64,000 nucleotides of DNA from a virus. Lineage: Duplodnaviria > Caudoviricetes. The stretch covers positions 96,001 to 160,000 of IMG/VR virus record IMGVR_UViG_3300033073_001153; one strand, 5' to 3'. A program made the translations under genes and the position numbers. The notes under the pieces were generated by a model. It was not told the origin of the DNA, did not search any database, and saw only the letters and a list, made by a program, of their open reading frames with translations. Shown here one piece after another: positions 41,949-45,791 of this stretch. Within the stretch, counting starts at the first letter, position 1; every line of letters begins with the position of its first letter.

Positions 41949-42020
41949 GTAATTATTTATTCATTTAGCTCCACAATGTAAGAGCAAATTGAAATAAAAA
42001 AAAATTATGTATAAATAATA

Positions 42021-42061
42021 AAAACCTCCATGCGTGTAAGGTACACACCGCATGGAGGTTA
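42021..42061 (-). terminator. intrinsic terminator after tRNA-CAT
   Basis: AACCTCCATGCG / CGCATGGAGGTT hairpin plus T-tract. Confidence 0.75.
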
Positions 42062-42066
42062 TAAAA

Positions 42067-42144
42067 TGGTGGGAGTGGCGGGTGACGATCCCGCGAATTC
42101 ACTTTTTTATGAGAAAAGAGCTGTTCCAACCTAGCTTCACTCCC
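42067..42144 (-). tRNA. tRNA with CAT anticodon (Met or Ile2), CCA encoded
   Basis: GGGAGTG/CACTCCC acceptor, CTTTT-CTCATAA-AAAAG anticodon arm, GCGGG-ATCGTCA-CCCGC T arm. Confidence 0.8.
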
Positions 42145-42261
42145 ATCTTAGCTAGCTACTTAGCTAGAAGAAATTTTAAAATTTTAAAGAACTTTTAAGG
42201 TCAATCTCAACCAACCTTACTCACCTACTATACCACACTTTCCACTAATTGTCAACTACTT

Positions 42262-42438
42262 TAGTGTGTTTTGATCCGTATTTTTTGTCACACTATTCAA
42301 CGAAATATTTACGGAGTTCCGTCTGAGCAATAGAGTTTACCCTCGACTCTATCGGAAAAGAATACCTACACAAGTTGTCTGAGTCACAACTCATATATCA
42401 GCTAGGCTTGCTCCAGCTCTCTCCCGTCATATTTGCGC
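42262..42438 (-). ncRNA. candidate structured RNA, copy A
   Basis: GC-richer intergenic block with several hairpins; 3' module shared with 45514-45652. Confidence 0.45.
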
Positions 42439-42471
42439 TTATGAAAGTTATAAAGATCTAATTAATTTTAC

Positions 42472-42582
42472 CTAGATACTTTTTATATTGCAAATATATT
42501 TTGATTGCTGTTCGTATCTAATCTTACTAGATGCCTTTTTTTATTTCCATTTAATAATATAGAAATTTGCTGCAAGCATCTA
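42472..42582 (-). ncRNA. two tandem ACAGCAA-motif hairpins (42527-42582, 42472-42520)
   Basis: TAGAT(G/A)C-N2-RCAGCAA-variable-A-tract-G(C/T)ATCTAG. Confidence 0.6.
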
Positions 42583-42596
42583 AAATTTAACTTACC

Positions 42597-43385
42597 TTAG
42601 AATTTTACCACAATTCCCGCAGAAGTCAACCAGAAATCATTCTTTTCACCACGATTAGAATTATTTGTGTTAAAATAAGTTACACCAGTGGTAAGTGCTA
42701 CATTTTTGGTGATAGGTGTAGTAGTGTTTACACCTGCTGAAGTGTAGCCATAGCGTTCACCAGAAGTATAAAAATTCTTATTTCCGAATCCTACTGCTAC
42801 TGGAAAACCAATCTTTGTGGAACAGAGCGACACAGATGGAGATACGCCGACTTCGTAATAATTACCGATTGGTTGTCCTACACGCTTTGTACCGAAGTAA
42901 CCTTTGGCATAAGGATTCAAAGCGAGTGGAGTTAGACCAGTGTCATCGAAATGTAGACCTAGATTAACTCCTTGTGCATCTGGAAACCAGTTCTTATCAC
43001 TATTAACCCATTCATAGGTAGAAGTGAGTGTGACACGATCCTTATTAAAAAGGAGTCCTGCATTATATTCAGAACGAGACAGTCCATTTAGAGGAGATGC
43101 TGTATGAATATTTTGTTTAGTAGAACCAATTACAGAAACGTTCACTCCACCAAGTTCTAGCTTAGTTGGAAAGATTACACCAGCAAATGGTTGGAATACC
43201 GCACTAGAATCGAATACACGACCCTTGTTGATGTAACCAGATGATACTTCTACTCCGATAACACCAGTCACGAATGGATCTGACTTGGTTTCGAGAGGCT
43301 TAGTGTTCTTTGTTGAAGTTCCTGCGAATGACGCAACTGAAGTAGCGAGCAATGCAGCCAATGTTGTTGTTTTTGTTTTATTCAT
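42597..43385 (-). CDS. outer-membrane beta-barrel protein
   Basis: Sec signal, alternating beta-strand pattern, C-terminal Phe; AGTSTK N-terminus resembles Verrucomicrobia OMPs. Confidence 0.7.
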   Translation of the reverse strand: MNKTKTTTLAALLATSVASFAGTSTKNTKPLETKSDPFVTGVIGVEVSSGYINKGRVFDSSAVFQPFAGVIFPTKLELGGVNVSVIGSTKQNIHTASPLNGLSRSEYNAGLLFNKDRVTLTSTYEWVNSDKNWFPDAQGVNLGLHFDDTGLTPLALNPYAKGYFGTKRVGQPIGNYYEVGVSPSVSLCSTKIGFPVAVGFGNKNFYTSGERYGYTSAGVNTTTPITKNVALTTGVTYFNTNNSNRGEKNDFWLTSAGIVVKF

Positions 43386-43885
43386 ATGTTTTATATGTTA
43401 CTTTGGTTTCCTTGATATCTCAAGAAATTTTTAGTTATTTTCCTCCATGTATTTTGAAATTTCTTCGGAATTCATGGCTGAATGTAATCTTACTGATTTG
43501 ATGATATTATGATCTAGAATAATGACAGACAGATTAGGTTCATGATTATGTCCTTCGCCAGTGTTGTGATATACTAGTAGGTCGTAATCTTTTTTATATT
43601 TGTCTTCTTCTTGTTGATCGACATTTTCTCCGGAATCGTGAATTAGTTGTTTATGAATCTTTTTTGGATTTAGAACTAATTCATAGATATAAGAGATTGG
43701 ATAAACTTCTTCGTCATTTACTTTAAAATCTGCTCTCCAGACGGCTTGGAAGAGTGAACCAGCATGAATGTTTTTATCTGGTCTGGATTTTACTCGTGAC
43801 AGAAAATCACCATTAAAAGAACAAGCATGATATACTGTGATATAGTCAGACTTTAAAATTTCGTCGAATGAAGTTTGTCTATCTA

Positions 43886-45322
43886 TCATACTGTGACGCT
43901 ATCGTAACGTTTTACGTTAATCGTGTCAAGCATGACTTGTTCAGGGCTGATAATTTTACCAGATAGAAGAGAAGTAAGGATAGATGGAGAGCAACCAGAA
44001 ACTAAACAAGTACCCGCTTCATCAAAGCGTACTGGAACATGAGTATTTCGTGCGTTCACATTCCAAAAAATTAATTCTGGACGTTCATAACCAGCAGATT
44101 TGTATGCTGCGTCGATATTCTGAAAAATTGTTTTATCTGGATGTTGGCAAGCTTGGTTTATTTCCATGTCGCTAATAATGTAAACCTTACTAGGCATTTC
44201 GGACTGTGGGACATTATTTTCCACGGCAGAATCCAGAACCAAATTAAATACAGATTCTAGATTAGTAGACATTCCCCAATCAGCACTTTGGAGATTACGT
44301 ACTTTTTCTCTGATATTATTTCCAATAACTTTTTGTAGTGTGGGAGTTTCTGAGAAAGTAATAAAGTGATCTTTGAATTGTCCTTTATTACGTTCAGAAA
44401 TGTACATGGCGAGTGAAATCGCCACTGCCATTGGGCGACCACTCATCGATCCACTCACGTCGCAAACTACGATGCCATTAGAATTGTCATTATTCGTGTA
44501 GTCAGGAAGGCTATTCCATAGTACATCGAGAGTAGTAGACTCATCACCGGCAAAACATTTTTCAACAATATCATAGGGGTATAGGGTTCCTGAATTAATA
44601 GTAGTTTTTCCTGATTTTACATCTTGAATGAATTGTTGATAACGAACATGATCATGTTTTTCGAAAGCATCTTTATAATTCAAGGCAGCTTTAGAAGGAA
44701 CTCCCTTGTAATTAATTTCAGACCAGTTATTCGAACACATCTTGCGTTCTACGATATCTAGTTCAGAACGCTTTTGCGAAAGTGTCTTACGATAAGTACG
44801 TGGAGAAATTCCTAGAAAACTACGAATCTCTTCAGCGATTGTACGAGTTTCTTTACTAGAAGTATTGTTTGATGGCATCCATTTTGCGAAAAGTGATGGA
44901 GTTCCTTCACGAAACCATTCACTCTTAATCATTGGAAGAACATTATTCTGCCATACCTTTGTACCCCGTGTGGAATAGAGGTCATCCCAACGTCCAAATT
45001 CAACAACATTCTCTAGATTCTTAATTGCTACTTCGGGATATTCTTTAGATAGCCAATTAAAGATTGTACGAAAAGTTTTACGCTCGCCTTGTCCACCTCT
45101 TACGTCCCTGATGTAGAAGAGTGTCTTAACTGCAAGAAGTGGATCTTCCGCAAATGCTTTAGAGAATAGACCGATTACATCAGCTTCTTCACGAGTACGT
45201 AGAGCAGCACCTAGACCAAAAAAGTCCACAGTATGCTTTAGTGTGGATTTAAGTGCTGCTGCACCGTTTTCAGTGGTGGTGATGTTCTGTTTGTTTTCGA
45301 TGGCGTTTAGTAGTGCGTTCAT
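43886..45322 (-). CDS. TROVE/Ro60-related vWA protein (DUF2828-like)
   Basis: TTENGA, RDVRGGQGER, GRWDDL, AKWMPS, LYPYDIV, MIDAS DVSGSM, ISDME, FWNV, VSG.SP. Confidence 0.85.
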   Translation of the reverse strand: MNALLNAIENKQNITTTENGAAALKSTLKHTVDFFGLGAALRTREEADVIGLFSKAFAEDPLLAVKTLFYIRDVRGGQGERKTFRTIFNWLSKEYPEVAIKNLENVVEFGRWDDLYSTRGTKVWQNNVLPMIKSEWFREGTPSLFAKWMPSNNTSSKETRTIAEEIRSFLGISPRTYRKTLSQKRSELDIVERKMCSNNWSEINYKGVPSKAALNYKDAFEKHDHVRYQQFIQDVKSGKTTINSGTLYPYDIVEKCFAGDESTTLDVLWNSLPDYTNNDNSNGIVVCDVSGSMSGRPMAVAISLAMYISERNKGQFKDHFITFSETPTLQKVIGNNIREKVRNLQSADWGMSTNLESVFNLVLDSAVENNVPQSEMPSKVYIISDMEINQACQHPDKTIFQNIDAAYKSAGYERPELIFWNVNARNTHVPVRFDEAGTCLVSGCSPSILTSLLSGKIISPEQVMLDTINVKRYDSVTV

Positions 45323-45324
45323 AA

Positions 45325-45465
45325 CTAGATAGGTTTTTTATCGGCATGGAGCCGTTCGGTATATTTTTTTGGTTTGCTGTTACTATCTTAAAGAGAACTA
45401 GATGCGGTTTGTTCTGGGGAGAACTTTTGGTTTCATGTAATATGAGGTTTGCAGTTACGCATCTA
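45325..45465 (-). ncRNA. two tandem ACAGCAA-motif hairpins in the TROVE 5' leader (45398-45465, 45325-45389)
   Basis: Same consensus as 42472-42582; the last ends 2 nt before the ATG. Confidence 0.6.
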
Positions 45466-45513
45466 AAATTGATGGTGCTATACTAGCAGAAATTTTAAGG
45501 TTGTCAACGGTTT

Positions 45514-45652
45514 TGATGTGTTTTGTTCCGGAATATTGTCACATCATTCATCGCTCGAACGTGATAGCCACATTCCTATAGCGACTAAGGCTAGTGTTTT
45601 CCATGCAATATCAGAGATACAACTCTAAACTAGCCTAACTCTCTCTGATGCT
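45514..45652 (-). ncRNA. candidate structured RNA, copy B
   Basis: Preceded by TTTACT-N17-TATAGT; 3' module shared with 42262-42301. Confidence 0.45.
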
Positions 45653-45716
45653 GACTACTATAGCATAATAAAATAGGAAGTAAAGATTTTTTTGATCAAA
45701 AAAGATAAATAATAAT

Positions 45717-45791
45717 ATGGGCAAAGGTAATCACGCGCACAGAAAAGAAAAGAAGAAGCCAAAGAAAGATAAGCCTAATCCTAAAAAGTAA
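45717..45791 (+). CDS. 24-aa basic peptide MGKGNHAHRKEKKKPKKDKPNPKK
   Basis: TAAATA just upstream of the ATG; below ORF-track cutoff. Confidence 0.5.
   Translation: MGKGNHAHRKEKKKPKKDKPNPKK

What the first reader, a model, noticed from the sequence alone, without database searches (positions are those of the whole stretch)
42262..45652. Duplicated covarying module ending exactly 6 nt upstream of a TTGACA box
Seen: GTTGAA-TAGTGTG-ACAAAAAATACGGATCAAAA-CACACTA (42262-42301) and GATGAA-TGATGTG-ACAATATTCCGGAACAAAA-CACATCA (45514-45552). The stems show compensatory changes and the loops keep ACAA..CGGA.CAAAA. The variable loop part is complementary to an upstream segment in each copy (AATAC/GTATT; ATATTCC/GGAATGT), suggesting a pseudoknot. 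Both blocks have GAGAGAG near the 5' end, adjoin the ACAGCAA hairpin pairs and end 6 nt before a -35 box. Inference: a 140-180 nt structured RNA of unknown class, or a DNA activator site.
Basis: partly seen in the sequence, partly recalled or inferred. Interest (0 to 1): 0.7.

Follow-up and report, generated by a model that had tools for sequence, protein, structure and literature searches.

The report
New structured small RNA of jumbo phages
The duplicated block is a real gene for a folded small RNA of a family found so far only in a few very large phages and absent from the RNA catalogue; its job is unknown, and it is neither a promoter switch nor a specific partner of the neighbouring Ro60-like protein.

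Summary
Both hairpin blocks lie on the minus strand at the stated coordinates and are the only two copies in the 242.6-kb phage genome.

They are RNA genes, not promoter sites. Copy 2 (45508-45652) has its own sigma-70-type promoter. It is conserved in a sister phage (G001), with 6 double-sided compensatory changes and one broken pair.

A covariance model of the 3' half (long hairpin H3/H4, then hairpin H5 with an 18-20-nt loop) found further members. One is in G003, a complete 211.6-kb phage sharing 59 of 246 large reading frames at about 39% protein identity. A weaker match (L089) lies between two tRNA genes.

Across five sequences, 12 of 19 pairs change on both sides and 97.7% of cells stay paired.

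G003 has no Ro60-like (DUF2828) gene and showed no CAGCAA-handle RNA under a rough filter. G003 and L089 have no -35 box after H5. So both local associations are incidental.

In four of five members the H5 loop has a self-complementary core (UUCCGGAA or UUCUAGAA), which suggests loop-loop pairing.

No Rfam family matches.

The scan's sequence look-up showed this RNA only in this genome.

The parts
45657..45684 (-). Promoter P1 of module copy 2: TTTACT, 16 nt, TGcTATAGT.
   Evidence: Consensus scan, 9/12 with a TG extension. The sister phage has TTGACA-17-AATATA at the same place. Sequence conservation begins just downstream, at CATCAGAGAGA.
45508..45652 (-). Module copy 2, a structured RNA of about 145 nt. 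Helices: H1 45649-45642/45617-45610; H2 45636-45630/45594-45588 (crosses H1, a pseudoknot); H3 45585-45580/45555-45550; H4 45575-45569/45563-45557; H5 45545-45540/45520-45515, with loop ACAAUAUUCCGGAACAAAA.
   Evidence: In the orthologue in G001, 113 of 148 columns are identical, 98.5% of cells are paired, 6 pairs change on both sides and 1 pair is broken; 4/500 shuffles reach this. The H1/H2 crossing pair was reached by 0/300 dinucleotide shuffles.
45480..45507 (-). Promoter P2 (TTGACA, 16 nt, TGcTAGTAT) for the leader hairpins and the Ro60-like gene. This is the '-35 box' of the finding.
   Evidence: It is conserved in G001 as TTGACT..TACTAT, 7 nt after H5.
45327..45465 (-). Two 'handle' hairpins (AGATGCG-TAA-CTGCAA...CGCATCT and AGATAG-TAA-CAGCAA...CTATCT) in the leader of the Ro60-like gene. 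They are context, not part of the module.
   Evidence: The same closing stem plus CAGCAA motif lies upstream of DUF2828 genes in many of the 153 fetched loci. The leader is near-identical in L083.
43886..45322 (-). Ro60-like protein (DUF2828 + DUF7788/vWA, 478 aa).
   Evidence: Pfam E 4e-52 and 4e-41, phrog_850 'RNA-binding protein'. AlphaFold model with pLDDT 86; the top 13 PDB matches are all Ro60/TROVE, with TM-scores up to 0.62 and most between 0.5 and 0.6.
43431..43889 (-). 152-aa gene overlapping the Ro60-like stop codon; function unknown.
   Evidence: No Pfam or PHROG hit. Found only in G001, at 75% identity.
42597..43385 (-). 262-aa gene that reads like a secreted outer-membrane beta-barrel protein.
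   Evidence: The only Pfam hit is weak, to Campylo_MOMP. It is absent from G001 and from every other locus.
42473..42582 (-). Second pair of CAGCAA-handle hairpins (42582-42528 and 42520-42473), upstream of module copy 1.
   Evidence: Conserved in G001.
42256..42432 (-). Module copy 1, a diverged paralogue. Its 3' domain is 42328-42256: H3 42323-42318/42304-42299, no H4, H5 42294-42289/42268-42263 with loop ACAAAAAAUACGGAUCAAAA. The 5' part, with GAGAGAG at 42423-42417, has uncertain limits.
   Evidence: It scores 36 bits (E about 1e-5) against a model built without it. Its 5' pseudoknot is not significant (151/300 shuffles). G001 has no module at this position.
42227..42255 (-). Promoter (TTGACA, 17 nt, TGgTATAGT) of the tRNA-Met unit. 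This is the other '-35 box' of the finding.
   Evidence: 11/12 match. The homologous promoter in G001 is preceded by a CAGCAA hairpin instead of H5.
42067..42144 (-). tRNA-Met (anticodon CAT).
   Evidence: ARAGORN.
42017..42060 (-). Strong hairpin followed by a T run, which reads as an intrinsic terminator after the tRNA.
   Evidence: Read directly from the sequence. The simple scan did not list it because the loop is long.

Best explanation
The module is a gene for a structured non-coding RNA of a small, undescribed family carried by one clade of jumbo phages.

Shown:
- Copy 2 is preceded by a sigma-70-type promoter, and conservation starts just downstream of it.
- The RNA folds into a 5' domain (in copy 2, a pseudoknot of two 8-bp helices) and a conserved 3' domain of about 80 nt.
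- The 3' domain is a long hairpin (H3 closed by an invariant G-U pair, then H4), a GA-containing linker, and hairpin H5.
- The 18-20-nt loop of H5 reads ACAA..U(C/A)(C/U)(G/A)GA(A/U)(C/U)AAAA.
- The family also occurs in a complete phage genome without any Ro60-like gene, and inside a tRNA array.
- It therefore sits in the phages' 'RNA-gene island' rather than belonging to the Ro60-like system or to the downstream promoter.

Inferred, at about 1 in 3: the RNA is cut out of, or trimmed from, longer transcripts and persists as a stable small RNA. It would then act through the A-flanked self-complementary core of the H5 loop (UUCCGGAA, UCCGGA or UUCUAGAA). That core could pair loop-to-loop with a second copy (a kissing dimer) or with an identical palindromic partner.

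Copy 1 is a diverged and possibly decaying paralogue. The stated confidence is for 'structured RNA gene of a new phage family, independent of the promoter and not Ro60-specific'.
For: - Uniqueness: there are two copies only in 242.6 kb.
- Promoters upstream of the RNA: the window, G001 (TTGACA-17-AATATA) and G003 (TTGACA-17-TATGTT).
- Selection: 76% identical columns between the window and G001. This compares with 58% at third codon positions of the neighbouring gene and 43% in the upstream spacer.
- Structure, two sequences: 34 pairs, 98.5% of cells paired, 6 double-sided changes, 4/500 shuffles.
- Structure, five sequences of the 3' domain: 97.7% paired, 12/19 pairs with double-sided changes, 0/500 shuffles; sliding the partners drops pairing to 31-42%. 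RNAalifold predicts the same three helices on its own.
- Strand: the first pair of H3 is G-U in all five sequences, so only the gene-sense strand can fold this way.
- New members: G003 scores 38.4 bits, E 2e-7; L089 scores 27.6 bits, E 5e-3.
- Independence from Ro60: G003 is complete (direct terminal repeats) and has no DUF2828 or DUF7788 match, while the controls G001 and G002 do.
- Independence from the promoter: no promoter follows H5 in G003 or L089.
- Loop self-complementarity of 6-10 bp in four of five members. Shuffled loop cores reach it in 3-27 of 500 trials, and CCGG is replaced by CUAG, which keeps the palindrome.
- No Rfam family matches at E up to 1-10.
Against: - There are only five sequences from four phage lineages, and two pairs of them are close relatives. 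The five-sequence alignment was fitted to the model, which favours the structure.
- L089 is a borderline match.
- No expression data exist, and both ends of the RNA are inferred. No terminator follows H5 in the window, so the module could simply be the first part of a longer leader.
- MFE z-scores of single sequences are modest (-1.7).
- Copy 1 lacks both the palindromic loop and H4, and G001 lacks copy 1 altogether.
- The 5' pseudoknot is not significant outside copy 2 and G001.
- The kissing-dimer idea rests on loop sequence alone. A palindrome could equally be a site for a dimeric protein.
Confidence: 0.75

Rival explanations
1. Cis-acting nascent-RNA element of the put/EAR type. On this reading the promoter-proximal two-hairpin 3' domain binds the transcribing RNA polymerase. 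That makes the polymerase resistant to pausing and termination, so transcription runs through the hairpin-rich RNA genes and terminators downstream.
For: - The HK022 put RNAs come as two similar copies per genome, are about 70 nt long with two stem-loops, and lie downstream of early promoters (PMC9378689).
- Here the conserved core is about 80 nt with two stem-loops, and this genome has two copies.
- Three members sit directly after a sigma-70-type promoter.
- Each member lies upstream of same-strand structured RNA genes or an intrinsic terminator: the tRNA-Met terminator in the window, and in G003 a hairpin plus T run read at L262:877-905, before tRNA-Ser.
- No terminator ends the module itself.
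Against:
- This mechanism does not explain the conserved self-complementary loop.
- In L089 the element lies deep inside a tRNA array rather than next to a promoter.
Confidence: 0.2
2. Partner or substrate RNA of the neighbouring Ro60-like (DUF2828) protein: a second, larger Y-RNA-like component of that particle.
For: - Both copies in this genome lie within about 1.6 kb of the Ro60-like gene, on the same strand. The G001 copy lies directly upstream of its gene.
- Bacterial and phage Y RNAs are typically encoded within 4 kb of the Ro60 gene on the same strand (PMC4201824; PMC12135203).
- The protein is Ro60-like by fold.
Against: - G003 has the RNA but no DUF2828 or DUF7788 gene, and a rough filter picked out no AGAT..CAGCAA..ATCTAG handle there.
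- About 250 other DUF2828 loci have no module.
- The module has no CAGCAA handle and no conserved GNCGAA motif (for the motif; read).
- Neither ARAGORN nor Rfam reports anything tRNA-like in the module.
- DUF2828 genes commonly sit among tRNA, tmRNA and RNase P RNA genes, so co-location is expected anyway.
Confidence: 0.12
3. DNA-level site: an inverted repeat and palindrome bound by a regulator that activates or represses the promoter 6 nt downstream.
For: - The spacing to TTGACA is the same (6 nt) in both copies.
- TTCCGGAA and TTCTAGAA are perfect DNA palindromes.
- Sigma-70-like TTGAC promoters are rare in this genome: 11 under a relaxed pattern.
Against: - The spacing is 7 nt in G001, and there is no promoter after the element in G003 or L089.
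- The helices H2-H5 keep pairing through changes on both sides and use G-U pairs, including one invariant G-U. Such pairs would be mismatches on the other strand and have no meaning for a duplex DNA site.
- In G001 the homologous tRNA promoter is preceded by a different hairpin.
Confidence: 0.04

Closest known systems
Phage T4 small stable RNAs rnaC and rnaD (species 1 and 2 RNAs) of the tRNA cluster
   Same: They are phage-encoded RNAs of about 120-140 nt lying among the phage's tRNA genes. The T4 record annotates them only as 'small, stable RNA' and names no function. That they are released by tRNA-type processing is from my own knowledge. The L089 member likewise lies between two tRNA genes.
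   Different: The 3'-domain model gives no match to rnaC or rnaD. T4 rnaC ends in a tRNA-like T arm; the module has none.
Y RNAs of Ro60: bacterial and phage YrlA/YrlB, and phiLo Yrl1/Yrl2
   Same: They are small structured RNAs encoded next to a Ro60-type gene on the same strand, often in more than one copy (PMC4201824, PMC12135203).
   Different: The module has no conserved GNCGAA/CGAA motif and no tRNA-like domain. In copy 2 and G001 it has no terminal stem joining the 5' and 3' ends. The family is also present in a complete phage without any Ro60-like gene.
CAGCAA-handle RNAs that accompany DUF2828 genes
   Same: They share the locus. Four such hairpins flank the same gene, and each module adjoins a pair of them.
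   Different: The handle is a closing stem AGAY..RUCU(U/A)G followed directly by CAGCAA. H5 has a different stem, and its loop starts with ACAA and carries a CGGA/UAGA core. The module is absent from about 250 DUF2828 loci that have handles.
HK022 putL and putR antitermination RNAs
   Same: There are two related copies per phage genome. Each is about 70 nt with two stem-loops, lies downstream of an early promoter and acts as nascent RNA (PMC9378689).
   Different: Sequence or structure similarity was not tested, because no put sequence was held. The module is twice as long, with an extra 5' domain. Function was not tested.
Self-complementary apical loops that make kissing dimers or rings (HIV-1 dimerisation initiation site, phi29 packaging RNA). 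This comparison is from my own knowledge and was not tested.
   Same: An A-flanked palindromic core is exposed in a hairpin loop, and a change (CG to UA) keeps the palindrome.
   Different: The loop here is much longer (18-20 nt). No Rfam family, pRNA (RF00044, accession from memory) included, was among the matches. Dimerisation has not been shown.

Membership tests
Y RNA / YrlA-YrlB (Ro60 partner RNAs) | Encoded within a few kb of a Ro60-type gene, on the same strand | tested here: met
   Both window copies and the G001 copy meet this. The L089 copy is 3.8 kb away on the opposite strand.
Y RNA / YrlA-YrlB (Ro60 partner RNAs) | Conserved Ro60-binding motif (GNCGAAN0-1G, or CGAA in a bulged terminal stem) | tested here: not met
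   The motif is defined in PMC4201824. No such motif is conserved among the five aligned sequences.
Y RNA / YrlA-YrlB (Ro60 partner RNAs) | tRNA-like domain (T and D arms), as in YrlA | tested here: not met
   ARAGORN and Rfam find nothing in the module.
Y RNA / YrlA-YrlB (Ro60 partner RNAs) | Co-occurrence with a Ro60-type protein in the genome | tested here: not met
   The complete phage G003 has the RNA but no DUF2828 or DUF7788 match. The same search does find the gene in G001 and G002.
CAGCAA-handle RNAs of DUF2828 loci | Closing stem followed directly by (A)CAGCAA, with the 3' strand ending RUCU(U/A)G | tested here: not met
   H5 reads stem-ACAA...CAAAA-stem, with neither CAGCAA nor AGAT/ATCT ends.
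Any Rfam 15 family | Covariance-model match at or near the gathering score | tested here: not met
   There are no matches at gathering level in the window. There are none overlapping the module at E up to 10, or at E up to 1 in the homologues.
Intrinsic terminator | G+C-rich stem with a short loop, followed by a U run | tested here: not met
   H5 has a 6-7-bp stem and an 18-20-nt loop, and is followed by AAAA.
Promoter-upstream activator or UP-type DNA site | Fixed position relative to a -35 box in all homologues | tested here: not met
   The spacing is 6, 6 and 7 nt in the three G000 and G001 copies. No promoter follows in G003 or L089.
T4 rnaC / rnaD stable RNAs | Sequence and structure similarity | tested here: not met
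   The 3'-domain model, run with filters off over the T4 tRNA region, gives no match in rnaC or rnaD.
put-type antitermination RNA | Two stem-loops, promoter-proximal, and read-through of downstream terminators | not testable with these tools
   The architecture and position are compatible. The activity needs a transcription assay.

The most novel reading that the evidence does not exclude
The family is a self-pairing phage RNA. Its long A-flanked palindromic loop would join two or more copies into a dimer or ring. That assembly would serve as a scaffold or as a polymerase- or nuclease-directed device in the RNA-gene island of jumbo phages. This would be a new functional class of viral RNA, comparable in kind to phi29 pRNA or the put RNAs but unrelated to either.
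Probability: 0.2. Interest if true: 0.75.

Novelty: new variant of a known kind. Interest (0 to 1): 0.45.

Why it matters
Jumbo phages carry 'RNA-gene islands' of tRNAs, tmRNA, RNase P RNA and Ro60-like particles, whose non-tRNA members are mostly unexplained (T4's rnaC and rnaD still have no annotated function). This is a well-supported new member of that set. It has a conserved two-hairpin core, an invariant G-U pair and a palindromic loop, which together give a direct handle for experiments. For this locus, the result also separates the module from the Ro60-like/CAGCAA system next to it. Anyone studying that system should not count the module as one of its parts.

Tried and rejected
- Tools that gave no access to close relatives. 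The single metagenome scan returned only distant loci.
- DNA patterns that gave only chance matches. The H5 loop pattern matched a G+C-rich coding stretch. The leader 20-mer found nothing. TCTCTGATATTGCATG gave 10 chance matches plus G001. A relaxed H5 pattern gave 51 chance matches. The genome contigs pattern gave 11 matches, all without an H5 stem except one inside an HxlR-type coding sequence.
- CGGAnCAAAA motif hits in other DUF2828 loci are coding or chance.
- A 5' pseudoknot in copy 1, G003 and L089 is not significant (151, 95 and 54 of 300 shuffles).
- An 18-codon reading frame inside copy 2 stops after two codons in G001, so there is no peptide (read).
- A 5'-3' terminal stem, as in Y RNAs, is present in G003 (9 of 10 bp read) but not in copy 2 or G001.
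- Homology to T4 rnaC and rnaD is rejected.
- A specific link to Ro60 is rejected as the main reading, because G003 lacks the gene.
Full report
**Setting.** The window is bases 96001-160000 of a 242,607-bp IMG/VR phage record with 31% G+C. Around the finding, all genes run on the minus strand.

In transcription order the locus reads:
- promoter P1
- module copy 2 (45652-45508)
- promoter P2
- two hairpins of the type AGAT..C(A/T)GCAA..ATCTAG
- a 478-aa gene (45322-43886)
- an overlapping 152-aa gene
- a 262-aa gene that looks like an outer-membrane barrel protein
- two more CAGCAA hairpins
- module copy 1 (about 42432-42256)
- a promoter
- tRNA-Met (42144-42067)
- a strong hairpin with a T run.

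The 478-aa protein is DUF2828 + DUF7788 and phrog_850 'RNA-binding protein'. Its predicted fold (pLDDT 86) matches Ro60 structures over its whole length; the top 13 PDB matches are all Ro60/TROVE, with TM-scores up to 0.62.

**The observation.** This covers the two hairpins, two adjacent compensatory pairs in the stem, the shared ACAA..CGGA.CAAAA loop, GAGAGAG near the 5' ends, the neighbouring CAGCAA hairpin pairs, and 6 nt to TTGACA in both copies. The loop motif has 0 expected chance matches. The whole genome holds just these two copies. No Rfam family matches.

**A close relative shows it is RNA.**
- A subfamily-specific protein search found G001, a 236-kb phage whose Ro60-like protein is 84% identical. 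The contig breaks inside that gene, so both flanks are at its ends.
- Copy 2 is present there (L163:4674-4818) behind TTGACA-17-AATATA, and conservation starts at CATCAGAGAGA, just downstream of the -10 box.
- The module has 76% identical columns. Third codon positions of the adjacent gene have 58%, and the spacer upstream has 43%.
- The differences fall in helices and keep them. H2 has one double change, H3 one, H4 three plus one single change, and H5 one. One pair is broken in 34. Overall 98.5% of cells are paired, and 4/500 shuffles reach this.
- H1 (8 bp, invariant) crosses H2, which makes a pseudoknot. No dinucleotide shuffle of the 5' domain gave two crossing helices as good (0/300).
- G-U pairs occur in H3 and H4, so only the gene-sense strand folds.
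- A model built from these two sequences finds copy 1 at 36 bits (E about 1e-5), mostly through its 3' half. It finds nothing in about 250 other DUF2828 loci.
- G001 has no module at the copy-1 position. There a third CAGCAA hairpin abuts the homologous promoter.

**A wider family.**
- A model of the 3' domain (H3, H4, linker, H5) gave a borderline match in L089 (27.6 bits, E 5e-3). That match lies between two tRNA genes and on their strand.
- A degenerate pattern drawn from the four sequences then found a clear member (38.4 bits, E 2e-7) in G003. G003 is a complete 211,587-bp phage with direct terminal repeats. A fragment, G004, carries the same sequence.
- In G003 the RNA follows TTGACA-17-TATGTT and lies in a tRNA region. 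Its predicted 5' and 3' ends pair.
- G003 shares 59 of 246 large reading frames with this phage at about 39% identity, so it belongs to the same broad clade.
- On the five sequences, 12 of 19 pairs have double-sided changes and 97.7% of cells pair. No shuffle reaches this (0/500), and slid partners pair at 31-42%. RNAalifold gives the same helices.
- Caveats: the alignment was fitted to the model, the five sequences come from four lineages, and L089 is borderline.
- The first pair of H3 is G-U in all five.

**What it is not.**
- G003 has no DUF2828 or DUF7788 gene, although the same searches find the gene in G001 and G002. By a crude scan it also has no AGAT..CAGCAA..ATCTAG handles. The module is therefore not an obligate part of the Ro60-like system. 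Its position here is explained by both lying in the phage's RNA-gene island. DUF2828 genes commonly sit among tRNA, tmRNA and RNase P RNA genes.
- The module lacks the features that define Y RNAs and the CAGCAA handle.
- The distance to the -35 box is 6, 6 and 7 nt in the close relatives. In G003 and L089 no promoter follows. The 'exactly 6 nt' is therefore tight packing of two transcription units, not a functional register.
- The model does not match T4 rnaC or rnaD.
- Bacterial genomes hold no member; the 11 pattern matches are chance or coding.

**How it may work.**
- The most distinctive conserved feature is the H5 loop. In four of five members its core is self-complementary: UUCCGGAA, UCCGGA, and (A)UUCUAGAA(U) twice. 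This exceeds shuffled loops (3-27 of 500). CCGG is replaced by CUAG, which keeps the palindrome.
- This points to loop-loop pairing between copies, or to a symmetric partner. It is an inference at roughly 1 in 3. Copy 1 lacks the palindrome.
- A put-like cis action on RNA polymerase is a fair rival. The reasons are two copies, a two-hairpin core, a promoter-proximal position, terminators downstream and no terminator of its own.

**Limits.**
The many metagenomic relatives with 77-89% identical Ro60-like proteins could therefore not be examined.
- There are no expression data.
- Earlier notes of this scan describe the same stretch and the CAGCAA/DUF2828 pairing in many genomes. By sequence look-up, the module itself was noted only in this genome.

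Noticed in passing
window 45327-45465 and 42473-42582 (minus strand); loci L003-L162: A closing stem (A)AGAY.. followed by (A)CAGCAA, a variable loop, and ..RUCU(U/A)G lies just upstream of DUF2828 (Ro60-like) genes in many of the 153 fetched phage and metagenome loci. It is often doubled. Some loops carry tRNA-like T- and D-arm sequences (L054, L057, L144). The leader of L083, a G+C-rich phage with a 68% identical protein, is near-identical to the window's.
   Followed up: partly
L243:1755-2060 (G001, downstream of the promoter homologous to 42227-42255): Where this phage has tRNA-Met, the sister phage has a stretch of about 300 nt. It begins GGGAGAG.. and ends with a T-arm-like GTGGATTCGAATTCCAC plus CTCTCCTACC. 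It may be a tRNA interrupted by a long insertion. Neither ARAGORN nor Rfam recognises it.
   Followed up: partly
window 42597-43385 (minus strand): This 262-aa gene has a signal-peptide-like start and a sequence that reads like an outer-membrane beta-barrel. It lies between the Ro60-like operon and the RNA genes. It is absent from the sister phage and from every other locus.
   Followed up: partly
window 45717-45791 (plus strand): This is a 24-codon frame for a very basic peptide (MGKGNHAHRKEKKKPKKDKPNPKK), divergent from the module's promoter and the only plus-strand feature here. G001 has a converging gene end at this place instead.
   Followed up: partly
L057:736-1113 and L017:736-1148: Other phages with DUF2828 genes carry a full RNase P RNA (class B, 238 bits) or a tmRNA (86 bits) within a few kb, among long tRNA arrays.
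   Followed up: no
L011:5726-5838, L131:1489-1603, L144:360-471: These Rfam tRNA matches are 112-115 nt long, far longer than a tRNA. They lie next to DUF2828 genes and could be intron-bearing or extended tRNA-like RNAs.
   Followed up: no
L262:366-595 and 744-848 (G003): The predicted 5' end of the G003 member pairs with the sequence just after H5 (9 of 10 bp read from the fold), closing the whole molecule. The MFE z-score is -2.6. The RNA is followed by a 34-codon hydrophobic frame and a hairpin plus T run read as a terminator, before tRNA-Ser.
   Followed up: partly
whole genome G000: Under a relaxed pattern, only 11 sigma-70-like TTGAC-N16-18-TAnAnT promoters occur in 242.6 kb. One of the promoters at the module locus is among them.
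   Followed up: partly
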